The translations under genes and the position numbers were made by a program. Source: Cetorhinus maximus (Eukaryota). From it: 64,000 bases of DNA. The stretch lies in contig NC_135881.1 of assembly GCF_964194155.1 (NCBI RefSeq), forward strand, positions 204,104,001 to 204,168,000, written 5' to 3'. Below, in pieces: positions 1 through 59,692 of the stretch; position 1 is the stretch's first letter, and each line of letters starts with the position of its first letter. The notes under the pieces were generated by a model. The model made no database searches. It had not been told where the DNA came from and was given only the letters and a program-made list of their open reading frames with translations.

Positions 1-449
1 CAGGGGCAATTAGGGGAAGATGTGTTTATTGGTGGCGTGGCGTTGGAGGTGTTTAGAAATCTCCCACTCAGTCTCTCTCTGTTGTCCTGGCCTCTGACTA
101 ACCTGATGCCAAGGAAATCTGGTGTGCACGGGCCCTCGACGCTGGCCTTTGAATCAGGATGTAATTTAGGAGGGCGATTTCATCGATCATTCAGGCCATT
201 TTCAGCGTGTTTTTGTAGGGGGTTTTTTTGTGCTGGTGCCTGTGCTTTCATGAGCTTTTGTGTCAATTGTCCTCACTTTTTTTTTACATGAATGCTTCTA
301 GCATTATGCAGATGTAACTATGGATAAGGTAATTCTAACATTTTTGCTTTTTATCAGAAAAGACACACGTACAAATTGGTGAAAGGTAAACTTTCCGGCA
401 CCAGAAAATGCTTCAAGTAAAAAGAAGTCAACTCTTTGAAAAGTATAAA

Positions 450-875
450 GGCTTCGGAAAGGGCACAGACGAGGTACCCAGGGATGGGGAGAGTTGGAAA
501 AGTTCAGGCTGTTCTCTTTGGAACAGAGAAGGTTGAGACGTGACCTCCTAGAAGCTTTCAGGATGGTGAACGGTTTTGCTAGAGTAAAACTATTCTCTCT
601 GGGGAGTGGGTCAGTAACCAGAGGTCATAAGATTAAAATTATAGGCCAGAAAACCAGAGGGGAGATGAAGGGAAATGTTCTCACTCAGAGAGTCACCAGG
701 ATCAGGAACGCTTGACCTGAAAAGGTGGTGGACCTGATTCCACTGACAATTTTCAAATGGAGTTAGATGAGAATTTGAGGATGAAGGACTTACAAAAAGC
801 TGGAGTGTGGGACTAAAGTATGACTGCTCTTTCAAAGAGCCAGTACAGGCAACGTGGGCTGAATGGCCTCCTCTA
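450..875 (+). mobile_element. CR1-clade LINE 3' fragment
   Basis: Decayed ORF2 C-terminus LFSLEQRRLRRDLLEAFRM...TRGH..KI, followed by the recurring 3' tail gggctgaatggcctcctc. Confidence 0.85.
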
Positions 876-1140
876 TGAATCTTTTAATGATTTTACGGAA
901 CAAGTCTCCAAGGAAGAGCAGTGTAGGTGAAATGCCTGAAATGTGAGGATGCTAGAATGTTTGAGGATGAAGCGATTAAGATGGGCTGAATGGCCACCTT
1001 CATTGTCGATTGATTATCTTGTGAGTTGGGTTTCCAAATGAGAATCAAAGTGAACTACGGAATTTTGCAGCACAGGTGAAGGCCATTCAGCCTACAGCAA
1101 GCACCATTCTAACTTAATTATTTGGTAGCACAGAACTCAA

Positions 1141-2460
1141 GTATTGCTGAAAAAAAATGTCGAAGTTTTTTGTCTTGCACTCATCAGGACACTTCACAAG
1201 AATACCAAATAGAAAGGGAAAACAAAAATTTATACCTAATGTGAAGAGAGTGCTGATTGGTTCGTACATGGACTCTGGCAGAGGCGTTGCCATGGAGAAT
1301 GCACCATTGAGGGTGACTGACAGTTAACTGCCAAGCATTGTTTGAAATTTAAATCCGGCAGCTTGACCCTGATTGGTCAAGGCATTACCCTGAGGAATGA
1401 GTTAGCGAATGGCTGTGACTTATTTTGTTTAACTGAAACAGGCGTGTTCTTTCTGCCCACAAAGATCAGGGCCCTGTGTATGAATATATACAGCTCCCAC
1501 TACACGCAAATGCACCACACTGCGAGCCCAACGGACAATCTTAAATTGGTTGTCAGTGTAATTTTTAGCACACTGAGGATTATTTAGCAAATGTTGTCCA
1601 ATCGCAGAATCACATCTAATGTTGGACACCGTGTTTTGAGTTTTGCAAGCACGGGCTGGTTGTCTACAGTCTGTACCTTGCCCGTTGCGAACAGCAGCTG
1701 GACATGCTGTTTGATATGATCCACCAGTCTTTGGCACATGCAGCCTACATATCTAGCATCACACTGGCACTGAAATTCATATACCACATTACTCCTTTGT
1801 GTGATGGGCAGAATGTCTCTTTGGCTTGACGGCAGCATCCTGTTAGTGGTGAACACCACTCGTGTTGCTACTGCATAGTAGCAGCGTGAAACAGCTAGCT
1901 TCACCTGTTGCTCAAATTCTTGAGATACCTTGCCCTTCCAGGGTAATCTGAGGTAGACTGGACACTTTTCATGGTCGAAATTGACGACCTTAGGCCCCTT
2001 CATGAGTTTGTGCAATATACAGTATGAAATGATCTGATCAGGGTAGCCATTATCCCACAGGATGCCTTTGCTGCTCCCTATTTCAGCATTTCTGCATGGT
2101 GAGAAAATGGCTTGGGCCCTACTTACGAGATTACCAATAAGACCAATCTTATAGCGTGTGGAACTGTAAGAATCCCACTGCATATATTGACCAGTGAAGG
2201 CAGGCTTGCGGTAGACTTTGGTAGAGAACCTCCTGGCAGATTTCCCAACTAGTATGTCAAGGAAGGGGAGTTAATTTGACTGCTCCATTTCATAGGTGAA
2301 TTTGAGCGCAGCATGGAGTCCATTAAAACATGTAAGGAAATTATTACATGCAGCTGCAGATTTAAACAAAGTAAATGCATCATCAACATATTGGAAATAT
2401 GCGAGGGGTAGGAAGTTATGTGTCATTCTGTCGAAGACATGTTTCACATGGAACCCAACC
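1141..2460 (-). mobile_element. Penelope-like retroelement, family A (RT + GIY-YIG, decayed, 5' truncated)
   Basis: Minus strand reads YFQYVDDAF...LPFLD...VYRKP (RT/thumb), then VVYEFQCQCDARYVG...RL..HIKQH (GIY-YIG, ORF 1584..2183); pLTR with hammerhead-like motif at 1158-1191. Confidence 0.9.
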
Positions 2461-2461
2461 C

Positions 2462-2668
2462 AAACTGTGGCTACAAGAGCAGGTCAGAGGCTAGGAATCC
2501 CTCAGCGAGTAACTCACCTCCTGACTCCCCAAAGCCTGTCCACCATCTACAGGGCACAAGTCAGGAGTGTGATGGAATACCCCCCACTTGCCTGGATGAG
2601 TGCAGCTCCCACAACACTCAAGAAGCTTAACACCATCCAGGACAAAGCAGCCCGCTTGATTGGCACCA
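2462..2668 (+). mobile_element. CR1/L2-group LINE ORF2 fragment (family also at 45615-46930 and 50626-51480)
   Basis: RAGQRLGI..RVTHLLTPQSLSTIY.AQVRSVMEY; near-identical DNA in the other copies in this window. Confidence 0.85.
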
Positions 2669-3009
2669 GATTAAAACAGCTGAAGACACCTTATAACCTA
2701 CCTGCCCTATCCTAATGTCTCCCTACATAGTTTGGATTCAAATCTTGTCTGATAATGCCCCTGTGAAGCACCTTGGGATGTTTTATTACAATAAAGGTGC
2801 TATATAAATGCAAGTTGTTGTTGTGAGAAACTGGAAGAAACCCTGGGAAAATGCACCCTCTTTGTTTTGGTTCAACATTCCTGTCCATCTGTAGCAATGC
2901 ACCCTTGTAGCCACATTTCGCAACATATTTGATGCATTTTGCATTCATATACCTTTCATTTGAGTTCCTTCGTGCCAAAGTTCTGCAATGATAAGAGAAC
3001 CTACTAGAA

Positions 3010-3470
3010 TCATGGCATCTAGAATGGCAGCAGCGCAGAAGGAGGCTATTCGGCCCATTGTGTCTGTGCTGGCTCTCTGCAAGAGCCAGTCCCACTGATC
3101 CGTGTAGCCCTGCAAATTTCTTTTCCTTCTGGCGTTTATCCACTAAATCTGCCTCCACCACACTCCCAGGCAGTGCATCCCAGATCCTAACCACTCGCTG
3201 TGTGACAAGTTTTTCCTCACCTGGCCTCTGGTTCTTCTGCCGACCATCTCAAACCAGTGTCCTCTGGTCCCCGGTCCTTCTACCAATGGGAACAGTTTCT
3301 CTCTATCTCCTCTGCCTGGACCTCTCGTGATCTTGAACACCTCCACTAAATCTTGTCTCGACTGCTTCTCCTCCAAGGAAACAACCCCAGCTTCCCAACT
3401 ATCCATGTAAGAGAAGCCCCTCAACCCTGGAATCACTCTCCAAGCTTTTTTTCATTCTGTCCAAAGCCTT
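3010..3470 (-). mobile_element. CR1 LINE 3' fragment
   Basis: ORF 3143..3436 (DLVEVFKI...EKLFPL...TRGH) plus CR1 3' tail. Confidence 0.85.
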
Positions 3471-3963
3471 CGTGTTCTCCTTTAAAACGTAGCGTCCAGA
3501 AGGGAACAGAATGTGCTATTTTACCCCAATTTTCAATATTTTTCATTTTTAAGATTATTGGCTTTGTCTTGCTGCCATTATTATCCAAATTGTCGTGTGT
3601 GACAACTAACAATGTGTACAAAAATAGCCAATTAACTTATCCTCCTCTGCCTCACTACTTATTGCCCTCAACTAAGAAAGGTTCTCAAACTAATATTTTT
3701 TTTTTGATTCATTGGGCCTTTTTTCCTATTTAGACTCTTCACACATCTCTGTACTGACTCGATGAACACTCCGTGCAGACCCTGTGCACGCAGTAGAAAC
3801 TCCTCCTCTTACAGGTGTTCACTCCGCAGTGCCATCTGCTCCGTGTGGTGACGCACCGGGTGTTAGTCTTCCGGCTGTAGAAGATGGAACGGCAAAAAGC
3901 TTCTAATATTAAGTAAAAGTATCAAAATGAATATAAACAAATCAAGCAGCTACACGATTTGCT

Positions 3964-4142
3964 AAACAAAAACAGAATTACCTGGAAAAACTCAGCGGGT
4001 CTGGCAGCATCGGCGGAGAAGAAAAGAGTTGACGTTTCGAGTCCTCATGACCCTTCAGAAGATGCTGCCAGACCTGCTGAGTTTTTCCAGGTAATTCTGT
4101 TTTTGTTTTGGATTTCCAGCATCCGCAATGGTTTTTTGTTTT
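3964..4142. mobile_element. Short fold-back insertion derived from PLE family B pLTR, 13-bp TSD
   Basis: Flanked by tacacgatttgct (3951-3963) and tacatgatttgct (4143-4155); ~47-bp inverted arms around a truncated hammerhead motif. Confidence 0.8.
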
Positions 4143-5569
4143 TACATGATTTGCTTGCGATTTTTAACTGCTCGTTGGATTTTGTAGGCATTTCGTCGCC
4201 CTTTATTCTCATTCGTTCCTGGGACGTGAGCGCTCTTGGCAAGGTCAGCACTTGCTGCCCATCTATAATTGCCCTTGAAAGGGGCTGCATTTAACTTGTC
4301 CCTTGTTTTGTTAATTTAGTTTAATTGTTTGACTCCAAAAGAGGTGTAATTGCCCTTGAGAAGGTGGTGGTGAGTTCCCTACTTGAAGCGCTTCAGTCCC
4401 ACGTGGTGTAGGTACACCCTCCGTGCTGTTAGGGAGGGAGTTCCCGGATTTTGGTACGATGATACAGTTCCAGGTCAGGGTGGTCTGTGGTTTGGAGGGA
4501 GTCTTGCAGCTGGCGGTGTTTTTGTGCGTCTGCTGGCCCTCGTCCTTCTAGATGGTAGAGGGTCATGGTTGGGAAGGTGCTGCTGGAGGATCCACTGCAC
4601 GCCGCTGGCGGAGGGCGTGAATAGAGTAGAGACAATGCGTATATCATTTTAAACCCTGTTAACCATGTCAGCCAGCGGAACAAAACTGCAAATCTCTGAA
4701 GTAAATGATTCTTAATTGCTAAGATTCTGCTGTGGCCTAAGAAACGGGTAGAAAATTAATTTACAGACAGAAAAAAAAAACAAATTTGAGGAAGTTAAAG
4801 GGTTGGAACATACATTAACGTACGGGGAGCGGCAAGCTTTCTTTGTAATCCACTTTCAAAAGAACCTGTATTCGATCCAGCCTTTCAGTTCACAACATCA
4901 CCCAATGGTGGCAGTAGCGTTACAGGAAGCTCAAAGAAACGTTTTTATATTGGGGTGAACGGTGATGATTTCCAGACAGCAACCCAGCGTTAAAGGTGAA
5001 TTTGACAGAACACTGTATAGGCTTCATCGGGGGAATTTATGATACTTTATGAACTCCCGCCCCACCCCCACCCCCTTCAAACTTCACCCCTCCCCGACTT
5101 CTTGTATTATTTTCTTGAACTCTATTTCCCTTCACCAGCATCCACCACGAATAATGTTGTTCGCATAATTCCTATTACGAACAAGTAGTTTGTTCCAATT
5201 TTTTTAGTAGTTGGCGCTCTCTAATGAATCAATTCCACTACTACCTGAATTTCAGTAAAACTAGCAAAGTTCTTCGACTGTGTGTAGTTTACACTGAGCT
5301 GCTTTATCATGTTTAATGAAAGTCACAGAGAATCGCAGAGTTGTTATGGCGTGGGAGGAGGCCATTTGGCCCATCGTGTCTACACTGGCTCTCCAATTGA
5401 GCATCATGACTTCGTGCCATTCTCCTGCCTTTTCCCTGTATCCTTGCACATTGTTTCTGTTCAAATAATCATCTAGCGCCCTCTTTTTTTTTGGAAGCAG
5501 TAAGCTCTTGGTTTGAAACCTTTATTCCATTTACCCTGAACGTTGCATGACTAATGTTACCACCACTTG

Positions 5570-5955
5570 TGTGTATATAAATAGCACCATGAACCTAGCA
5601 AAATATCCCAGGCACATTATACAGCAGAGTTAGGCACCGAGGTACAAGGCGTTATTTGGATATCTGACCAAAAGCAAGGTCAGAGAGGTAGGTTTAAGGA
5701 GCGTCTTAATAAAGGAGCGAGAGGTAGAGAGTTGGAGAGGTTTAGGAGTGGATTTCAGAGTTTAGTTGGGGCCCAAGCAACTGATGGAGCAATTAAAATT
5801 GGGGATGCTCAAGAAGCCGGAATTAGAGAAGAGCAGATATCTCGGACCATTATGGGACTTGCAGGAGGTTATATAGTTGGAGGGTGGGGGTGGGCGAGGC
5901 CCCATGGAGGGATTTGAAAAGAGGCGTGAGAATTGCAAAATCGCGGCATTGCAGG
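5570..5955 (-). mobile_element. L2 LINE 3' fragment
   Basis: Similar to the L2-type 3' ends at 21780-22250 (-), 2712-2825 (+) and 42805-43185 (+). Confidence 0.7.
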
Positions 5956-6214
5956 ACTTTAAGACATATTGCGTTACCTGTGAGGTTTCCATTACAAATA
6001 TCCTCATGACTCTGATGGACAACCGCTGATTTTTATATGACTTTCTCATCAAAGTGTTGGAGTTATCAGTAGTACCATATTCATATTCCTGAGTTTTTAA
6101 GCTTCCAGCTACACACTTAATCTCACGTCAAATTGCGAATCTGTGTTGGAGAAAAGAAGAAGCAGAATAAAGTGAGAGTCTACAGGAAGGTTCAAAAGGA
6201 AAAAAAGAATCCTC

Positions 6215-6805
6215 GGCTTTATAAATCGGGGCATAGAGTACAAAAACAAGGGAGTTGTGATAAATCTGGATAAAACACTGATTCAGCCTCATCTGGAGTA
6301 TCGTGTCCAATTCTGGGTGCTGCACTTCAGGAAGGATGTGAAGGCATTAAACAGGCTGAGGAAAGATCCATGAGAATGGTTCCAGGGATGAGGAGTCTCA
6401 GTGATGAAGATAGTTTGAAGAAGCTGGGGCTGTTTCTCCTTGAATGAGAGAAGATTTGATAATGGTGTTCAAAATCGTGAGCGGCCTGGACAGAGTAGGT
6501 TGGGAGAAACTGTTCCCATTGGGGGAAGGATCGAGAACCCGAGAGCACAGATTCAAGGCGATTGACAAAAGAATCAAAGGTAACATGAGGAAAATCTTTT
6601 TTTTATGCAGTGAGTGGTAAGGATGTGGAATGCACTGAGAGTCTGGTGGAGGCAGACCCTATCAAGGCTTTGTAAAGAGAATGAGATAATTATCTGAAGA
6701 GATAAAACTTGCGGGGCTATGGGGAGTGGGACTAGCTGCTTGCAGAGAGCTGGCACGGATGTAATGGGCCAAATGGCCACCTCCTGTGCTGTAACCATTC
6801 TAGGA
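6215..6805 (+). mobile_element. CR1 LINE 3' fragment
   Basis: gggcatagagtacaaaa...ctggagtatcgtgtccaattctgg (GIEYK...LEY.VQFW) to the 3' tail. Confidence 0.85.
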
Positions 6806-6948
6806 TGCTATGAAAATGGGGTAAAGAGAATAAACTGAAAGGCACTTTTCTTCAGAATTAGCAAGATGTGTAAATTGGCAACCTGATGGGGGTGTGTGGA
6901 CATCATTTTAAATTGTTTGGTATTGCATATCAGAGAATGCTGCGTTTA

Positions 6949-6999
6949 CAATTTGAGGGTAGACTCAATTTGAGGGTAGACTCAATTTGAGGGTAGATT
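6949..6999 (+). repeat. 17-bp tandem repeat x3 (caatttgagggtagact)
   Basis: Directly visible. Confidence 0.95.
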
Positions 7000-8699
7000 C
7001 TGATATGTGAAATACCTTGCGTAAGTAGTATTCCAAGCTGCACAAGTCTAGTGTTTGAAAGGACCTGGAATTCCCATTGTGTGCAACCTACACAACCCAG
7101 CTCACACACACACAAGAGGCAGCTTTTTATCTGTTTTTGATACAACCGTGCTCATCTCACTGGCTCCCTCACAGTGCACAGATTGCAGCCAGATCTTGCT
7201 GGCTTCTCCCTGCTCCCTCTGCCCCACAACAAGCTGCCACTAATCATTGCAAACCCAGCTGCTCGTTCCCTGCTACCCTTCCCTCTGCTGTTGCTAATCA
7301 AAGGCTCAACTTGCTGCTCTACCCAGCTGTCTGACTACCCTGACCAACATTGCTAAGTTGTGCTGTCGAGTTTTTTTTGCTTGCCAATGATGCATACCTT
7401 GCAATCTTTGATTTTGAGACCCCAGTGGTTCCATGTCTAGTTTGTCAGTGCATTCCTCGGTAATCTGGCACTCGAGCCGATTTGTGCACAAGTTATCTCC
7501 GTCTGCTAGTTGATGAGCTCCTATCAGTGCTGTTGCTGCAGATATACCTTGTTCTTCTATTGGAACTGCTATAAAAATGTGCGGTGTAAATAAATAAACT
7601 CCCGTGAGTAAACACGGTACCTGGTAAAGGAGCCAATGCCTCATTAGCTGATGGTACACAGACTAGGGGGGGACACAGACTTAAGGTTTCGGGCAAGAGA
7701 TGGCTGGGGGGAGGAGGGTGGGGGAGAGTGAGGAAGAACTTTTTTTCCCCACAGCGAATGGTAACTTGGAACTCGCTGCCTGTGATGGAAGCGGAGCCAA
7801 TGAATGGTTTCAAAAGGAAACTGGATGGGCACTTGAGGGAAATAAACTTGCAGGGCTATAGGGATAGAGCGGGGCAAATGAGACCGACTAGGTTGCTCTA
7901 TAGAGATTCAGCATGGACTCAATGGGCCGAATGGCCTCCCCCTGTGTCGTAATGACTGTAATAATATTGTAGAATATCACTTCTGAATGTTGGGAAATAA
8001 AATTTGAGGATTTAAAGTGAGCAGCTTAGTTTTTGACCGAACACTGACCTACCATCAATGCTAATTAAATGAGTGAGTTAGTTTTGCTGCCTTACCAGTG
8101 GGCGCTCCACACAAACTTCTCACTATAACCACCCTGCCGAAGGATATTTTTTGCCAAACTTGTGAAGGTGGGACTTGAGGAGAGGGGGGCTGGATATTAC
8201 TAATTGTACAACTTATCCATTTTATTACCCTATCCTATAGCCGATGTGTGCAGCTGCCCACTAACTGTTTAACCTGCAATGACCTGACTTGTTCAGATTA
8301 TCAAAGGGCCACTTAAAATGTTAAATGTGCCTTTCTAACTCCCGGCACTGTCAGCAAACTGTAAACAGAGCATTGGTCCCCATGACCACGATCATCTTTC
8401 TTGCAAAATGCAAGCAACTAAAGGGTACTTTTTTTTTTCAGCCAGATTGATCGAGCGCTAGCCACAGATTCTGGAAGATGTAAGCAGACTCACTCCTTGG
8501 GACCATAAGAAACATTATTCCTAGACACAGTGAGGCTGGAGTTAATTTGCCCACATCCCCTACAACAACTCTTAATTTAAGGAAGTAAGGTTCTGGACGA
8601 TGCCAGTATCCTTGTGCATCCGAACTACCGCAATGCATTTTACTTGTAATAGAATGAGTTGGAGAACACTGTTCAGTTTATTCAGTCATCTTGCAAAAC

Positions 8700-10120
8700 C
8701 ATAAGAACACAAGAAATAGGAACTGGAGTAGGCCATTCGGCCCCTCGAGCCTGCTCCCTCATTCAGTAAGATCATGGCTGCTCCACCTCAATTCCACTTT
8801 CCCGCACTATCCTCCTATCACTTTATTCCCTCAGTGCTCAAAGATCTATTAACCTCAGGCTTGAATATGCTCAATAACTGAGCATCCGCAGCTCTCTGAG
8901 GTAGAGAATTCCAGACTCTCAACCCACTGAGTGAAGAAATTGCTCTTCATCTCAGTCCTAAATGGTTGACCCCTTATCCTAAGACTGTGACTCCCTCGTT
9001 CTAGACTGGATGAACAAGGTGAAACAGCCTCTCGGCATTGAGTTTGTCAAGCTTGCTTAAGAATTTTAAACATTTTAATGGGATCCCCTCTGATTCTTCT
9101 AAACTCCAGAGAGAATAGGCCCTTTCTATACTCGATCTTTCTTAATTGGATAGTCCTCTCATCCCAGGAATCAATCCAATGAACCTTCATTGCGCCTTCT
9201 CTAAGGCAGGTATAACCTTCCCCAGTACGGAAATCAAAACTGTACGCAGTACTCTAGATGCGGGGTGGAATTTAATGCCCTCCCCGTGGTGAATTTGGTG
9301 GTGGCGGGGGTGGGGGGGGCATTTAATCAGTTGGGCTGGTGGCAGGTAAGGACCCTGCCACCTTCATATCTCTGCCCCGATTAAGTCCCTGGCAGTAAGG
9401 CCTGTGGATGGCCTTCACATCCCACTGCCAATTGAGGCCCTTAAGCAGACAATTAATGCCCACTCAAGGCCCTCATCCTGTCGCCACTGACATTGACCCA
9501 GCAATAGGTAAGGGCCTTGCCATGAAGGAAGTCGGAAAAGCAAACCAGTGTGGGCCTGCTGGTCAGCTCCCAGTGGAGACCCCTTATTCAAAGGCAATCA
9601 GTGCCTGATTGAGGGATCCAGCTTTGGGAGGCGGGGTGAGGGGTGCGCTGAGAGCTACTCCCCTTGCCCGTGCTATCGATTCCTCCATCCCCCACGACCC
9701 CTATCCCATGACCCCTTTCTCCCCACCTGGTTCACCTGTGCCTGGGCCCTCCCTCGATTTGAGGTCTCAGGTAGGTGTAGTACCGGCCGCAGCCACCGCC
9801 TCCCCGATGGCACTGCTGAGTGCCGAAACGCTGCCTGCCTCTGATTGGCTGGCAACTCTCGCAGACGAATATCCACCATCCCTCCCCCCCACCCCACCCC
9901 CAACCAGGTCCTTGACCCTTGGGGGAAGGCCTGCCGCTAACCTGTTAAGTGCCTGGGTGGTGCAAGGTGTAGGGGGCCTCCCCAGAATAAAAGAGGCAAT
10001 GCAGGGGCTCTTGCTGGCTCTCCAGCTGATGGCCAAGACCCCCATCACTTCCACAAGATTCCACCCATGGCCTCACCAAAACCCTATATAATTACAGCAA
10101 AACTTACTTATTCTTATATA
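8700..10120 (-). mobile_element. CR1 LINE 3' fragment interrupted by a MITE at 9263-10066
   Basis: CR1 sequence gtactctagatg...tggcctcaccaa resumes on the far side of the insertion. Confidence 0.8.
9263..10066. mobile_element. GC-rich non-autonomous DNA transposon (PIF/Harbinger-like MITE)
   Basis: Termini GGGTGGAATT...GATTCCACCC; imperfect 3-bp target duplication; splits a CR1 fragment. Confidence 0.65.
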
Positions 10121-10756
10121 GCAACACCGCCCCTCCCTCCCCCCGCCAACCCACCATGCAATAAAGACTAACTTTGTGATGCATAAGTGCCAGTATGAAC
10201 TGGATGGGCAGAATAGCCTGCTTCTGTCGTATACCCTATGTGTTCACTCTTAAGTGCAGGGGTGTGCAATATATTTAAAAGTTGGGCTGATTCTTTAGGT
10301 TTCGATATGGAATTGTTTAGCACAATGAAACACGAGTGGATTTAGGTGTTGGCTTGTTTGCGTGTTGCTACTTGCCTAATATATACACGGGCCTGAGCAC
10401 TGAAATAAGATCAAATTCATGTATCCACAGAGTGCTCTCTAATTACCGCTGGATATGTCCTACGAAGTAAACTCATGTTAAATTCCCTGTAGGTTTTTTC
10501 TTCCATGGTTGCCTTTAATGACTGGCAAATTCTTTCTCCTCCAGATCCGGTTTAATTCTAGCTGCATAATATTACTGTGAATGCATTCCTGCTAGGTCCA
10601 CTCTGCTATCACGGAAGTGGCTACATGTGTCTCAGTGATGCTCTGTGGAACTTGCTAGCAGGTTGACTGAGAACACTGTTGTATGTGGAAAGGATAACTT
10701 GAAGTTGGAGGAGTTAAGTTAGAGCTTTAGAAATGACATGAAACTTTGCTGTGAAA

Positions 10757-11114
10757 GGCATAACACGTAATGTACAAACAAGGGAGGAAATTCCGAAAGG
10801 CTATTCCTTGTTGACATAACAGCTACTGACAAATTTTAAATAAAATTACTCAGCCGGCAACTGAGGTCGATGCCTGCCTTTTAGTTTAGAGTTGCTCATT
10901 TTTAACCTTGCTTGAAGCTGAGCACTCTCATTGTTTTACTGGAAGAAAAGCGTGCTTGTCCGAAGTGCGTAAGTGTTGAACTTTGTTTTTAAGTGCGAGT
11001 TTCAGTGTTTTTATTTAAATTTCCCTGAACGTTTCTGAGAGTTTATTTCGCTTTGTGAAGGTGAAGGATTTCACTGGTGGTATCAAAGCACTTGTCCATA
11101 TCGAGTACTCAGTG
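10757..11114 (+). repeat. Long inverted repeat, left arm (~358 bp)
   Basis: Reverse complement of 13257-13614; manual alignment gives ~17 substitutions and ~4 single-base indels. Confidence 0.97.
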
Positions 11115-12110
11115 TTTCCGTTAAGTAGTTTCTAGGTCAGAGAATCGTATGCAGAGAAATCTATTCTGTAGTTTCGCTTCATTAACACAGCAGCAGGAGA
11201 TCTCCTATGGAGCCTTTGATTTATGTCAGTGGAGCTTTTCTGTTGAGTATTTTGTACAAGTCATTCTGTAAGTAATTTTAAAAAGTGCACTCCTGATATG
11301 TATCCATTTCCTCTGCCGAGTGCTTGCAATGAAATTATTGCTGGGCTGTTGCAAATTGTTTTCTTCCCCCACCCCACAGGGTTTGGATATGCTTCAATTT
11401 GATGTCTTTACTAGTTTACAGACATGCTATTGGCGAAGGGCGTAAGCAAATGGAGTTTCAACCCCCCTGATAGCAGTGCTTGTATTCTGTGTTATGCAAT
11501 GAAATCTAAATTACTCATTTATAATAGCTCCATGTCTGCAAGATATTTAATAACTTACTGTATAAATATTGAAAATTAAATTCAGTAATATTAAAGGAGC
11601 AGTCTTGATGTTTAAAAATTCAACCCTAGAAGTGAAAATGGGCTGTGCAATTGTTGCAGGATAAGTATATGTTATTCCTGTGTCAATCCTATAATATTTC
11701 AAGGATATGTTTCCATTACCCACAGGCTGTGATTATCCACAAGAATATCTTTATGGCCAATTTATAATACCTTAACTTTATGGAGAGTGGCAGATGGGAG
11801 GCTGTCGAGCAGTATATCGGAATGGTCAGGTCTAGATGACACAAAGACATGGCTGAGCGTTTCAGCAGTCATTGAGCTGAGGCAGGGGCAGAGCCAGGCA
11901 AACGTTCCTTTTCCCCTCGTGCTTAGCTTCCCCTTATATCCTTCTATTCTGTTTGCCCCAACTACTCTCTGTGTGGCAGTGAGTTCCACATCCCCAGCAT
12001 TGTCCAGATAAGATAAAAAGCAAAATACTGCGGATGCTGGAAATCTGAAACAAAAACAAAAATAGCTGGAAAAACTCAGCAGGTTTGACAGCATCTGCGG
12101 AGAGGAACAC

Positions 12111-12149
12111 AGTTAACGTTTCGAGTCCGTATGACTTTTCATCAGAACT
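12111..12149 (-). ncRNA. Minimal type I hammerhead ribozyme motif (PLE pLTR), antisense to DROSHA
   Basis: agtt CUGAUGA a aaguc auacg gacuc GAAA cg UU aacu: intact core, stem I agtt/aact, stem II, palindromic stem III AACGUU. Confidence 0.7.
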
Positions 12150-12693
12150 AAGGGAATAGAGAAATGGGGTGAAATATAAGCTGGTTGAGGGGGGGTGGGA
12201 CAGGTAGAGCTGGATAGAGGGCCAGTGATAGGTGGAGGCAAAGAAGAGATTACCAAAGATGTCATAAACAAAAGGACAAAGGGGTGTTGATGGTGGTGAT
12301 ATTAGCTGAGGAATGTGCTAATTAAGGGTAGAAAGTAGGACGAGCATGTGACAGGTGGGGGGAAGGGATAGGCTAAAAGGTGGAGATCAAACAATGGATG
12401 GAAATAAATTTAAAAATAATGGAAACAGGTGTGGGAAAAGAAAAATACATTTAAAAAAATTATAAATTATTGGAAAAAGGGGGATCGGAAAGGGGTGGGG
12501 ATGGAGGAGAGAGTTCATGATCTGAAATTGTTGCACTCAATATTCAGTCCGGAAGACTGTAAAGTGCCTAGTTGGAAGATGAGTTGCTGTTCCTCCAGTT
12601 TGTGTTGAGCTTCACTGGAACAATGCAGCAGGCCAAGGACGGACATGTGGGCATGAGAGCAGGGTGGAGTGTTGAAATGGCAAGCGACAGGGA

Positions 12694-12733
12694 GGTTCTG
12701 ATGAAGAGTCATACGGGACTCGAAACGTTAACT
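12694..12733 (+). ncRNA. Minimal type I hammerhead ribozyme motif (PLE pLTR), sense to DROSHA pre-mRNA
   Basis: gguu CUGAUGA a GAGUC auacgg GACUC GAAA cg UU aacu: intact core, 5-bp stem II. Confidence 0.75.
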
Positions 12734-13256
12734 GTGTTCCTCTCCGCAGATGCTGTCAGACCTGCTGAGTTTTTCCAGCTATTTTTACTATTCTCCAGAT
12801 AAGGACTTTTCTTCTGAATTCCATATTTGATTTGGCCCCTGGTTTTGTTTTTCCCCCACAAGTGGAAGCATTCCCTCTGCATCCGTTCAATCAAAGCCTT
12901 TCATTATTTTAAAGACCTCTATTAGGTCACCACTCAACTTTCTGCTTTCGAGAGAACAGAGACCCCACCTGTTCACCCTCCCCTGATGGGTATAACTTTT
13001 ATTTATCTTCTTGGTAGAAGTCCCTTTGTGGACTGTTGTTTGGGCCACAGGTCGACCATGTTTTCCGGAAATTTGTTAGTCAGTCGCGGGCTGTGTTCAG
13101 GGCAGCTCCGTTTTGCAGAAGGACCTCAAACAGATGTGGGGGTCCCCCTCTTCGCAAAGGACCTAACGCCTGGGTTCAAGCCTGGGCCCTAAACGCCGCT
13201 TTTTTCTGACTTTACCAGACTGGCGTGCGACACATGTCCTGCACATAGTCAGCGTG

Positions 13257-13614
13257 CACTGAGTACTCGATATGGACAAGTGCTTTGACGCCACCTATGA
13301 AATCCTTCACCTTCACAAAGAGAAATAAACTCAACAGAAACGTTCAGGGAAATTTAAATAAAAACACCAAAACTCGCATTTAAAAACAAAGTCACACTTA
13401 CGCACTTCGGACAAGCACGCTTTTCTCCCAGTAAAACAACGAGAGTGCTCAGCTTCAAGCAAGGTTAAAAATGAGCAACTATAAACAAAAAGGCAGGCAT
13501 TGACCTCAGTTGCCGGCTGAGTAATTTTATTTAGAATTTGTCAGTGGCTGTTATATCAACAAGGAATAGCCTTTCGGAATTTCCTCCCTTGTTTGTACAT
13601 TACGTGTTAATGCC
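13257..13614 (-). repeat. Long inverted repeat, right arm (~358 bp)
   Basis: Reverse complement of 10757-11114; ends 202 nt upstream of exon 13817. Confidence 0.97.
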
Positions 13615-13816
13615 ATCTTGAATTTTCAGACGCTTGCTTTGTGCCTGTAAAAAGAAATGTGGGCAGTGTCAGCAGATTTCCAGGCTGGTGTATCTGATGT
13701 GAACCAAATGCGAGAGCCGCAAGGTATCGTTTTATTGACTCAAATTGAAGTTGGTGGTGTTGTCGGAGGGAAGATGATTTGTATGATTGATAGCATGCTG
13801 ATACTTCTCTTTCAAG

Positions 13817-13916
13817 GTATCAGAAACTGTGGAAGAGTTATGTCAAACTGCGTCATCTACTAGCAAACAGCCCAAAGGTCAAACAAGCGGACAAGCAGAA
13901 ATTAGCTCAGCGCGAG
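13817..13916 (+). CDS. DROSHA: DROSHA coding exon (100 nt, phase 2-0): (Q)YQKLWKSYVKLRHLLANSPKVKQADKQKLAQRE
   Basis: ttcaag|G acceptor and GAG|gtaag donor; peptide nearly identical to vertebrate Drosha central domain (YQKLWKSYVKLRHLLANSPKVKQTDKQKLAQRE). Confidence 0.97.
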
Positions 13917-14397
13917 GTAAGCTACCGTATACTCCCATTCTTCTGACGCTGGTTATGTTTTCATTTAACGCTAGATTTCTTGAAAAGCCTTTGGAATAAT
14001 GTAGAGGATAAATGATGCGAGTTAGGAATGCAAATAGGAGAGGATACGTCCAAGAATCCAGCTTGTGCTGAAGATTCCATCGTGTAATCAAAGGGCAGAG
14101 TTTAGGAAGGATGTGAAGGCGTTAGAGAGGGTGCAGAAGAGATTCACAAGAATGGTCTCAGGGATGAGGATCAGTAAGGGGCATGCGAGGAGACAGGTGG
14201 CTGTGCTGGAGTGAGACGGAGTCTGAGTGAGTAGCGGATTAGGTTCACCTGGTAAGTTCTGGTAAGCCCTTTTCAGGTTTTAACTATAGATTCAGGATCA
14301 AGTTCTGACATAGTACTAACCTTCAAGTAAGTTAGGCCAGCTTGTTAAACTGAGTACTGCCTGCAGTGGTTCAGTTGGTTCAGGTGGTATTAATGAC

Positions 14398-14958
14398 TGT
14401 AGCAGGAAGCTAAACTAGCCAGCGACTCATCAGAGGGTCTATAAAAGAGACAGGCGTAGAGGTGTTCCCCTTTTCCCTCAGAGACCCTCCCCACACTCAA
14501 GTTTGAGACACCAGATTCACAAGTGTATGGCTTGAACATAATGACCAGCACAACAAGTTTCCTCTGATAATTCACAATTGCTTTATTGAATCACCCACAA
14601 TCCAGCAGTGCAAAACCCCAAAACTTAAAACAACCCGTTTCCCAGTACCCGACACAAAGTCCCCACGACTTGGGCTTAAACTTACAATAGCGCAGGCAAA
14701 ACACCACGTCTTGTCCTGAAACCTTAAGAAAAAACCCTCAGGCCAATATCACCCAAGAATGGCTGAAACAAGTTACAAGGTACTGGCAAAACACACCAAG
14801 TTTTCACCCCAAACCTTCACAAAACCCTCAGACCAATATCACCACGATTTGGTTGAAACGTACAATCCCCAACATGGCTGGTCAGTCCGGTGTAGAATGT
14901 AGGCCTGGGTCAAGGTGACCAGCCCTGACCCTCCTTCCAGCTGCAGCCCAGATATTCA
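14398..14958 (-). mobile_element. Probable retroviral-type LTR
   Basis: Minus strand TG...CA termini, preceded by a purine-rich tract (aaaaaacaagagcagata); AATAAA near 14585; internal ~90-bp diverged direct repeats at 14696-14865. Confidence 0.5.
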
Positions 14959-14982
14959 TATCTGCTCTTGTTTTTTAATAAT

Positions 14983-15354
14983 TTAACTCAGACATGTCAA
15001 AACATATTTCCTGTTGTTCCAGTGTCCATTTAGTTGATTCCACGCAAACTCCAGACAAATGTCATCAGCTCCTGCTGGTTGAAACAATACAGGGTTTTCC
15101 ATGGAAGATGTATCCAGATGAATATTATCACTTCTCATTGTGTGAGCAATTCTCCTGCTGTTTGAGGAGACATAGTAACAGCACCTGGCTCCAAAGTTAA
15201 TGCAGACCTTAGATGCATAATTCCTTGAGGGTATTGTGTTGATGATCTGTCCTTTGTGCCATTGTATTGGGTAACCAGACTTCTTGATAGCATTAGTTGA
15301 TGGCAGGTAATGGCATTTCACTGGTACCATTGTTCCCTGGTAGCAGTCAGTCAA
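14983..15354 (-). pseudogene. Possible ERV envelope (TM) remnant
   Basis: VCINFGARCCYYV is a CX6CC motif (15178-15204) just upstream of the PPT/LTR; no clear ISD or TM helix survives. Confidence 0.35.
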
Positions 15355-58195: not shown

Positions 58196-59692
58196 TGTAT
58201 TGCTGAAAAAAGAGACGCTTTTGAAGTTTTTTTGTCTTGCACTCATCAGGACACTTCGCGAGAATACCTATATAAGGAGAAAACAACAATTTATACTGTG
58301 TGTGAAGAGAGTGCTGATCGGTTGGCAAGTGGACTCTGATTAGTAGAGGTGTTGCCATGGAGACTGCACCAGTGATGGTGACTGACGTTTCACTGCCAAG
58401 CATTGTTTGAAATTTAAACCGGGCAGCCTGACCCTAATTGGTCAACACATTGCCCTGAGGAATGAGTCAGCAAATGGCTGTCATTTATTTAGTTTAAATG
58501 AAACAGGCACATTGTATTTACATGTTCTTTCTGTCTGTAAAGTACAGGGCCCTGTGTATTAATATATGTATCTTCCAGTACCACACCGCCAGCCCGAATG
58601 ACAATCTTAAATTGGCTGTCAGTGTAATTTTTAGCACACTGAGGATTATTTAGCAAATGTTGTCCAATCACAGAATCACATCTAATGTTAGACACGGCTT
58701 TGAGTTTTGCAAGTACAGGCTGGTTGGGTACGGTCTGTACCTTCCCCGTGGCTGGGACATGCTGTTTGATATCTGTGCTTACCTAGCATGACACTGGCAC
58801 TGAAACTCATACACCACATTACTCATTTGTGTGATAGGCAGAATGTCTTTTTGGCTTGCCAGCAGCATCCTGTTAGTGGTGAATACCACTCGTGTTGCTA
58901 CTGCATAGAAGCAGTGTGAAACAGCTAGCTTCACCTGTTGCTCAAATTTTTGAGGTACCTTGCCCTTCCAGGGTAATCGGAGGTAGACTGGACACTTATC
59001 ATGGCCGAAAGTGATGGCCTTAGGCCCCTTCATGAGTTTGCCTGATCTACAGTGTAAAGTGATCTGACCAGGGTAACCATTATACCACAGGATGCCTTTG
59101 TGTCCTATTTCAGCATCAAGCTTGCATGGTGAACAAATGGCTTGGGCCCTATTTACAAGGTTGCTCGAGCCATTTTCTCACCATGCAAGCTTGATGCTGG
59201 ACAACATTTGCTAAATAATCCTCAGTGTGCTAATAATTAGGCTGACAACTAATTTCAGATTGTCAGTCAGCCTCGCAGTGTGACACATTTGCATGTACTG
59301 GGAGCTACATATATTAATACACAGGGCTCTGTTCTTTGCAGACAGAAAGAACATGCACACACTTTGCACCTGTTTCAGTTAAACTAAATATGTGACAGCC
59401 ATTCGCTGACTCATTCCTCAGGGCAATGCCTTGACCAATCAGGGTCGAGCTGCCTGGTTTAAATTTCAAACAATGCTTGGCAGTTAACTGACGGTTATAA
59501 CATCACTGATGCATTCTCCATGGCAACGCCTCTACCAATCATAGTCCACTTGCCAACCAATCAGCATTCGCTCCTCTCGTACAGTATAAATTGTTGTTTT
59601 CCCCTCATATTGGTATTCTTGTGATTGTCCTGATGAGTGCAAGAGGAAAAGCTTTTTTTTTTCAACAATGCACAAGTTTTGTACTACCAAAC
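58196..59692 (-). mobile_element. PLE family A copy with long inverted segment (58196-59166 minus; 59167-59692 plus)
   Basis: ORF 58779..59033 matches ORF 1584..2183; ~59200-59670 is the reverse complement of ~58196-58665. Confidence 0.9.

What the first reader, a model, noticed from the sequence alone, without database searches (positions are those of the whole stretch)
10757..13614. ~358-bp near-perfect inverted repeat in a DROSHA intron, 202 nt upstream of a coding exon: candidate dsRNA autoregulatory element
Seen: arms 10757-11114 and 13257-13614 are ~94% identical reverse complements (manual count ~17 substitutions, ~4 indels), ~2.1 kb apart. They resemble none of the LINE, PLE, SINE or MITE families in this window, and the spacer holds much more decayed L2 and CR1 fragments. 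Known: Drosha/DGCR8 bind dsRNA, Microprocessor cleaves DGCR8 mRNA hairpins, and human DROSHA is reported to alter splicing of its own transcript through a hairpin. Inference: the pre-mRNA could fold a ~350-bp duplex beside a 3' splice site, acting as a feedback sensor or an ADAR substrate (about 7 A-C mismatches on the sense strand). Caveats: only ~5 of 17 substitutions give sense G-U pairs, so there is no wobble bias. The outer ends (ggca-taa|CACGT...ACGTG|ttaa-tgcc) are also compatible with TIRs of a TTAA/TA-targeting DNA transposon.
Basis: partly seen in the sequence, partly recalled or inferred. Interest (0 to 1): 0.75.

Follow-up and report, generated by a model that had tools for sequence, protein, structure and literature searches.

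The report
Edited inverted duplication in DROSHA intron
A 358-base stretch of a DROSHA intron has a backwards copy of itself 2 kb away, and a related species' RNA carries dense A-to-G changes there, as expected where double-stranded RNA is edited, but the repeat is likely an ordinary DNA-copying accident, probably one of thousands in this genome, and not a feedback switch on the microRNA machinery.

Summary
The repeat is real: arms 10757-11114 and 13257-13614 are 93.9% identical, in a 17.3-kb DROSHA intron. The arm has only these two copies in the genome, so it is not a transposon family end. Both arm versions occur in DNA of two relatives. One RNA contig of a relative shows 13 RNA-only A>G changes among 22 A's of the right arm and 0 among 49 in the flank. 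This supports a duplex edited by ADAR, from one contig in one run. The arm is no more conserved than the intron (7.7% vs 6.4%, p=0.55), shows no G-U bias and covers no splice site. Similar local inverted duplications are common here: 5 verified in 1.4 Mb. Best reading: a neutral, locally templated inverted copy that became an ADAR substrate. Drosha feedback is untested; a strong cryptic acceptor in the loop (11380) is a weak lead. Earlier scan notes report smaller inverted copies elsewhere in this genome.

The parts
10757..11114 (+). Left arm, 358 nt, unique sequence; likely the pasted inverted copy
   Evidence: CpG o/e 0.80 in the arm but 0.33 in its flanks. An arm version with its 1-nt gap is seen in DNA of relatives B and C.
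13257..13614 (+). Right arm, reverse complement of the left; likely the original intron sequence (donor)
   Evidence: Continuous with both of its flanks in relative B (records 5, 7, 28, 32). Flank CpG o/e 0.70, like the arm (p=0.028 against the left flanks).
13259..13324 (+). Cluster of A>G changes in RNA of relative B, inferred A-to-I hyper-editing of the DROSHA sense strand
   Evidence: table 3: 13 RNA-only A>G rows (13265, 13272, 13278, 13279, 13288, 13293, 13297, 13300-13302, 13317, 13318, 13324), 0 in three covering DNA runs; 13290 is A in all B and C DNA contigs and G in the RNA; 13262 and 13319 are ambiguous. Counts.
11115..13256 (.). Spacer (loop), 2,142 nt of host intron with older and younger repeat insertions
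   Evidence: 11115-11780 is single-copy; 13020-13134 has one 73% match on C10.
11380..11441 (+). Candidate cryptic 62-nt exon inside the loop (strong acceptor, weak donor); would shift the frame and give a premature stop in the next exon. Unproven
   Evidence: Acceptor score 10.2, best of 948 AG sites in 1-13816; donor -0.1. 16 acceptors as strong in 528 kb of strand, about 6% chance in the loop. No protein match.
12013..12793 (.). Penelope-like insertion with an inverted end and 10-nt target duplication (12003-12012 and 12794-12803); family label from recall
   Evidence: Internal inverted pair 12058-12148 / 12695-12786 at 96.7%; many copies nearby; duplication read; no Pfam hit for its ORF.
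11906..12990 (.).
   Evidence: 75-77% to other copies in the fetched DNA; hundreds of repeat contigs lie on 12842-12990.
13817..13916 (+). DROSHA coding exon downstream of the repeat
   Evidence: Spliced to the upstream exon (ending about 3.47 kb before the window) in RNA run X15 (table 7).

Best explanation
The two arms are a single-locus inverted duplication of intron DNA, likely made by a template-switch or repair event that pasted a backwards copy of the right-arm sequence 1-2 kb upstream before this species split from relatives B and C; the pre-mRNA is predicted to fold into a roughly 350-bp duplex, which ADAR likely hyper-edits, probably with no selected role in DROSHA control. Shown: the repeat, its two-copy status, both arm versions in three species, the A>G cluster on one RNA contig, and the lack of extra conservation. 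Inferred: the direction of copying, the repair mechanism, ADAR as the enzyme, and neutrality.
For: Two copies only: 2 candidates in whole-genome searches; end patterns give 2 exact hits and fewer near-hits than controls (47 vs 112; 10 vs 21). Same layout is common: 13 of 140 background 10-kb loci hold an inverted pair of 120 nt or more at 85% or more; 9 were flagged local, one a satellite. All 5 tested genome-wide have a partner at 90-95% and no other match that is both full-length and above about 76%. In 3 of 7 examined, the host repeat runs through both junctions of one arm and neither of the other, i.e. donor plus pasted inverted copy; 4 were uninformative. Rate 3.6 per Mb (95% CI 1.2-8.3), giving about a 33% chance of one in the 112 kb of DROSHA mapped. 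Neutral decay: arm 23 of 300 differences vs intron 25 of 393 against relative B (p=0.55); 5 of 12 transitions give G-U; arm-specific changes (13290, 13297, the 13333/4 gap) are not homogenised. Editing: 13 of 22 A's in the arm vs 0 of 49 in the flank; all 19 flank differences of that contig are shared with B DNA.
Against: None of the 5 verified background duplications has fully unique arms; all are mostly old repeat, so the rate for unique-arm cases is only bounded (0 in 1.4 Mb, under 2.1 per Mb). The arms differ by 4.8%, less than A-B orthologues (6.3-8%; Poisson p 0.02-0.15); this needs a slower A lineage and a duplication shortly before the split, or some arm-to-arm conversion. The outer ends read like TTAA|CAC...GTG|TTAA. 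Editing rests on one contig, one run, another individual than the DNA runs; 71 of 111 difference rows were not shown, and sites on one contig are not independent. The left arm was not seen with its own flanks in the relatives. The strongest acceptor-like site in this part of the intron lies in the loop.
Confidence: 0.7

Rival explanations
1. The duplex has been co-opted to control DROSHA: it would loop out a cryptic 62-nt frameshifting exon (11380-11441), and Microprocessor or ADAR binding would set how often that exon is included and the mRNA decayed, or where the transcript ends.
For: The duplex appears to form in vivo. Best acceptor score of 948 AG sites in 1-13816, followed by GTAAG 62 nt on; inclusion would give a stop in the next exon. 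[quoted passage not shown] Human DROSHA co-opted a transposon hairpin in this way (PMC5473138 passages). The repeat has survived in three species.
Against: Acceptors this strong occur once per 33 kb, about 6% chance in the loop. Donor score -0.1 and no consensus branch point within 60 nt. No protein with this frame (weak test). No constraint on the arm. No local hairpin at the exon (z +0.5 to +2.2). The B RNA run has normally spliced mRNA at this junction.
Confidence: 0.1
2. The arms are long terminal inverted repeats of an extinct, very low-copy TTAA-targeting DNA transposon that captured host DNA between its ends.
For: Ends read (T)TAA|CACGT and ACGTG|TTAA, and the empty site would be a 12-nt palindrome. 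Arms are CpG-rich and AT-tract-rich.
Against: No third copy of either end or of the arm. Inner-left sequence is single-copy. No Pfam hit in the 4 spacer ORFs scanned. The spacer's CR1-like piece is older than the arms. The left TTAA is imperfect, and identity runs 4 nt beyond it, which junction microhomology would also give. The right arm's CpG level continues into both its flanks.
Confidence: 0.1
3. The spacer was inverted through a staggered break, which duplicated the 358 nt at the breakpoint; same RNA consequences, different origin.
For: Gives the same arm-spacer-arm layout (established knowledge of inversion breakpoints, recalled). No target duplication at either arm.
Against: In the 3 informative background cases one arm keeps both native flanks, which fits pasting and not inversion. 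The right arm's flanks on both sides share its CpG level.
Confidence: 0.07
4. The A>G cluster is not editing but polymorphism or a germline copy of an edited RNA.
For: RNA and DNA runs are from different individuals; one contig only. Germline fossils of editing are described in an earlier scan note (e1-8625280, unchecked).
Against: All 13 are A>G, begin at the arm's inner edge and are absent from three covering DNA runs. The same contig continues through unique flank with only B alleles. The run holds spliced mRNA. G precedes 3 of 15 changed and 4 of 6 unchanged A's, in the ADAR direction (motif per PMC5625713).
Confidence: 0.03

Closest known systems
Intronic inverted-repeat dsRNAs hyper-edited by ADAR (inverted Alu or SINE pairs; PMC5625713 and PMC11838218, passages seen)
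   Same: Long near-perfect duplex in an intron with a sense A>G cluster. Size is typical: human edited dsRNAs have a median of 297 bp and a 2,025-nt loop (PMC11838218 Table 1). Hyper-editing is reported for elephant shark (PMC5625713 table row).
   Different: Arms are unique sequence, not two copies of a dispersed repeat. In human only 4,597 of 1,236,563 edited dsRNAs are non-repetitive, with a median of 144 bp.
MMBIR-type templated insertions (MMB-TI; PMC8421209, passages seen)
   Same: Inverted copy of nearby DNA fixed in the germline, no target duplication, possible junction microhomology (GGCA).
   Different: That paper's signature is a short insertion with its template within 100 bp (partly a limit of short reads). 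Here 358 nt at 2.1 kb (about 1.35 kb without the Penelope-like insertion).
Human DROSHA exon 7 hairpin (Lee, Nam, Shin 2017; PMC5473138, passages seen)
   Same: A duplex in the DROSHA pre-mRNA that arose from an accident of genome history.
   Different: The human element is 190 nt, MER5A-derived, spans the exon 7 donor, is placental-only, and is shown to be a Microprocessor substrate. This one is in a much later intron, covers no splice site, has a 2.1-kb loop, and has no functional evidence.
Conserved complementary regions (PCCRs) that loop out poison exons (PMC10573301, passages seen)
   Same: Long-range intronic pairing with a candidate frameshifting exon in the loop.
   Different: PCCRs are defined by conservation; this arm diverges like its flanks, and the exon is not shown to exist.
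piggyBac-type and other TTAA-targeting DNA transposon ends (features recalled; search returned 0 papers)
   Same: TTAA next to CAC...GTG at the outer ends.
   Different: No family copies, no transposase trace, host-like older spacer, imperfect left TTAA.

Membership tests
ADAR hyper-edited intronic inverted repeat | Long, near-perfect complementary arms on one transcript | tested here: met
   93.9% over 358 nt in one intron; 344 of 358 bases paired in the MFE fold of 10700-13660.
ADAR hyper-edited intronic inverted repeat | Dense A>G in RNA, absent from DNA, on the transcribed strand and confined to the duplex | tested here: met
   13 of 22 vs 0 of 49; one contig, one run of relative B, unmatched individuals.
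ADAR hyper-edited intronic inverted repeat | Depletion of G just 5' of edited A | tested here: inconclusive
   3 of 15 edited vs 4 of 6 unedited; right direction, small numbers.
ADAR hyper-edited intronic inverted repeat | Editing on both arms and in this species | not tested
   Only the right arm was laid, and no RNA holder of organism A was listed.
TTAA-targeting DNA transposon (piggyBac-like) ends | Dispersed family copies sharing the termini | tested here: not met
   Two copies only; the same search finds hundreds to thousands of candidates for other arms.
TTAA-targeting DNA transposon (piggyBac-like) ends | TTAA target duplication on both sides | tested here: inconclusive
   TTAA on the right, TAA with a 1-nt gap on the left; identity extends 4 nt further out.
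TTAA-targeting DNA transposon (piggyBac-like) ends | Transposase remnant or internal sequence shared with other copies | tested here: not met
   0 Pfam hits in 4 of the 32 listed ORFs that were scanned; inner-left single-copy; one 115-nt 73% match for inner-right.
MMB-TI templated insertion | Inverted copy of a local template | tested here: met
   direction inferred from CpG context.
MMB-TI templated insertion | Template within about 100 bp (operational definition in PMC8421209) | tested here: not met
   Spacer 2,142 nt. It works like an MMB-TI but is not filed as one.
MMB-TI templated insertion | Microhomology at the junctions | tested here: inconclusive
   Needs the pre-insertion site; the outer GGCA could be one.
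Microprocessor autoregulatory hairpin (human DROSHA exon 7 type) | Hairpin overlaps a splice site | tested here: not met
   Arm ends 202 nt before the acceptor; no stable local fold around the exon.
Microprocessor autoregulatory hairpin (human DROSHA exon 7 type) | pri-miRNA-like geometry (about 35-bp stem, short loop, basal motifs; recalled) | tested here: not met
   358-bp stem with a 2.1-kb loop; no UG at the basal junction.
Microprocessor autoregulatory hairpin (human DROSHA exon 7 type) | Drosha/DGCR8 binding or cleavage and a splicing change | not testable with these tools
   Needs CLIP, degradome or small-RNA reads, or a minigene.
Conserved complementary region looping out a poison exon | Arms conserved above background, with compensatory changes | tested here: not met
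   7.7% vs 6.4% divergence against B, p=0.55; no wobble bias. Full covariation could not be counted without the relatives' arm sequences.
Conserved complementary region looping out a poison exon | A used, conserved exon in the loop | tested here: inconclusive

The most novel reading that the evidence does not exclude
A shark lineage independently evolved DROSHA feedback: a chance inverted duplication makes a 350-bp duplex that loops out a frameshifting cryptic exon, and Microprocessor or ADAR occupancy of the duplex sets how much DROSHA mRNA is diverted to decay or truncated before both RNase III domains. This would parallel, at another site and by another route, the placental exon 7 hairpin.
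Probability: 0.08. Interest if true: 0.75.

Novelty: new member of a known kind. Interest (0 to 1): 0.36.

Why it matters
As it stands, it is a clean example of a non-transposon inverted duplication that has become an ADAR substrate, and a warning that a long duplex in a dsRNA-pathway gene can be coincidence: such duplications occur at about 3.6 or more per Mb here. The wider observation may matter more: extrapolated, about 14,000 or more local inverted copies of 0.1-0.6 kb, 0.3-2 kb from their source, would be a source of endogenous dsRNA that does not depend on paired transposon insertions. If the regulatory reading held, it would show convergent self-regulation of the microRNA-processing enzyme in two vertebrate lineages.

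Tried and rejected
Rfam scan of 9000-15000: 7 matches, all far below gathering scores, E 0.38-4.9. The C24 multi-copy hits to the outer 16-mer are a 21-23-nt match inside unrelated 3-kb duplicated units; treated as chance. The 98.8% inverted pair 85 kb upstream is a Penelope-type fold-back, not this kind of thing. Wobble bias: none. Local pri-miRNA-like hairpin near the exon: none. Concerted evolution of the arms: only a weak hint (p 0.02-0.15), contradicted at three arm-specific sites. No RNA holder of organism A was listed; no evidence either way. In one search only one B contig covers the outer half of the arm, and the RNA run has no contig on 13556-13816; contigs drop variants and have holes, so neither was used. 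Two AATAAA in the right arm (13324, 13357) suggested intronic polyadenylation; contigs cannot show ends, so it was left open. Protein search for an isoform carrying the cryptic exon: no candidate (longer proteins only, weak). Paper searches for this element listed nothing that describes it by title or abstract start; I did not open those hits except PMC11838218. Splice-site scores used approximate frequency tables from recall, not MaxEntScan.

Full report
Observation. The exon at 13817-13916 matches human DROSHA (9asm_A 753-785). tblastn with relatives maps further DROSHA exons on the + strand from about 24 kb before the window to 87 kb. The upstream exon ends about 3.47 kb before the window, so both arms lie in one intron of about 17.3 kb. 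On the sense strand the mismatches are 5 G-U, 7 A-C and 5 others. A fold of 10700-13660 pairs 344 of 358 left-arm bases with the right arm.

Copy number. The whole arm and its outer half each give only the two arms in the 3.99-Gb genome. End patterns give two exact hits and fewer near-hits than reversed controls (47 vs 112; 10 vs 21). The tool warns that no match does not prove rarity, but the same search returned 259-4,240 candidates down to about 70% identity for five other queries. The arm is therefore not the end of a surviving transposon family.

Relatives. A run search listed two other organisms, B and C. I laid 4 of the 24 listed runs on 12800-14050. In B the right arm is continuous with both flanks. 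All three DNA runs hold two versions of the arm in about equal depth, one with the 1-nt gap at 13333/4 that marks this genome's left arm. In C the gapped contig leaves the alignment at 13257, the inner arm edge, and continues with about 870 unlike letters. The repeat thus predates the three-way split, at least for its inner part. The left arm with its own flanks was not examined in the relatives. Divergence from B is 23 of 300 in the arm and 25 of 393 in the intron beside it (p=0.55), while the exon has 0 differences. The arms differ from each other by 4.8%, somewhat less than orthologues (6.3-8%; p 0.02-0.15). That could mean some conversion, but changes at 13290 and 13297 and the gap remain arm-specific. 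Sharks mutate slowly (7e-10 per base per generation in one species; PMC10587355 passages), so long survival of the repeat needs no selection.

Editing. Run X15 of B is RNA: its exon contig continues into the upstream exon's 3' end (table 7; 29 of 30 letters match). An intronic contig of that run (12899-13355) differs from this genome at 19 listed places in the flank 12997-13256, all shared with B DNA. Inside the arm it shows 13 A>G changes absent from all three covering DNA runs, plus 13290 (A in all B and C DNA contigs, G in the RNA); 13262 and 13319 are ambiguous. That is 13 of 22 A's against 0 of 49 in the flank (the Fisher p of 9e-9 is descriptive, since sites share one contig). The changes are A>G on the DROSHA sense strand and start at the arm's edge, the pattern expected of ADAR hyper-editing of a duplex (PMC5625713 passages). 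Limits: one contig, one run, unmatched individuals, 40 of 111 rows shown, right arm only.

Background. I scanned 140 ten-kb stretches (1.4 Mb, 14 arbitrary places) one by one. Thirteen hold an inverted pair of 120 nt or more at 85% or more with a 50-5,000-nt spacer; 9 were flagged as closer to each other than to other copies, one of them a satellite. The 5 tested genome-wide all have a 90-95% partner and no other match that is both full-length and above about 76%, so they are local duplications. In 3 of 7 examined, the host repeat runs through both junctions of one arm and neither of the other; 4 were uninformative. This is the pattern of a pasted inverted copy. The rate, 3.6 per Mb (95% CI 1.2-8.3), gives about a 33% chance of one in the mapped part of DROSHA. 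None of the five has fully unique arms, so the DROSHA case is the rarer unique-sequence form. Its right arm shares the CpG level of its flanks (0.80 vs 0.70) and its left arm does not (0.33; p=0.028), which suggests the right arm is the source.

Regulation. The human precedent is a 190-nt MER5A-derived hairpin across the exon 7 donor, found in placental mammals only (PMC5473138 passages). The present duplex covers no splice site, lacks pri-miRNA geometry (features recalled), and there is no stable local fold at the exon. One lead remains: a strong acceptor at 11380 inside the loop, best of 948 AG sites in 1-13816, with a weak donor 62 nt on; inclusion would create a premature stop. Acceptors this strong appear 16 times in 528 kb of strand, about a 6% chance for the loop, and no matching protein was found. 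Poison exons are enriched in loops of stable pairings in human (PMC10573301 passages), so it is worth a junction-read test, but nothing shows it is used.

Comparison and verdict. Physically this is a typical edited intronic dsRNA (human median 297 bp, 2,025-nt loop; PMC11838218 Table 1), unusual only in having unique arms. It works like a templated inverted insertion (PMC8421209 passages) but is longer and farther than that paper's definition. Searches listed no paper on this element; supplements were not read, and subscription papers are not covered. Verdict: real, shared by three species, probably edited in vivo, most likely neutral (0.7). Regulatory co-option 0.1, relic transposon 0.1, inversion scar 0.07. 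New member of a known kind; interest 0.36.

Noticed in passing
L075:744-2228, L096:6493-9315, L133:503-1810, L188:571-1700, L189:5647-6749 (also L080, L102, L142): Local inverted duplications of 126-562 nt at 90-98% identity, 0.3-1.7 kb apart, mostly copying pieces of old repeats; at least 5 in 1.4 Mb, so about 14,000 or more genome-wide if the sample is typical. Three show a donor arm and a pasted arm.
   Followed up: partly
window 11380-11470: Very strong acceptor-like site in the loop; without the weak donor it would open a terminal exon with a 29-residue tail and stop, upstream of both RNase III domains.
   Followed up: partly
window 13324 and 13357: Two AATAAA hexamers on the sense strand of the right arm; the edited RNA contig of relative B ends at 13355.
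   Followed up: no
window 58229-58666 / 59198-59650: Another inverted pair in a DROSHA intron (454 nt, 83%, 532-nt spacer) made of a dispersed repeat; a second potential editing substrate in the same gene.
   Followed up: no
L044:4502-5456 (about 85 kb upstream of the window): Young Penelope-type fold-back, 422-nt arms at 98.8% with a 112-nt spacer.
   Followed up: partly
L032-L035 (C24, at least 11 places, plus C212, C280, C307): Family of 3-kb or longer duplicated units at 93-95% identity on one chromosome, with what looks by eye like the first exon of a receptor-like gene.
   Followed up: no
window 13020-13134 and L005:1501-1609: A 115-nt 73% match between the inner-right spacer and C10, probably a very old low-copy repeat.
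   Followed up: partly
L122:2303-4844: Two mirror-image arrays of a short tandem repeat about 1 kb apart.
   Followed up: no
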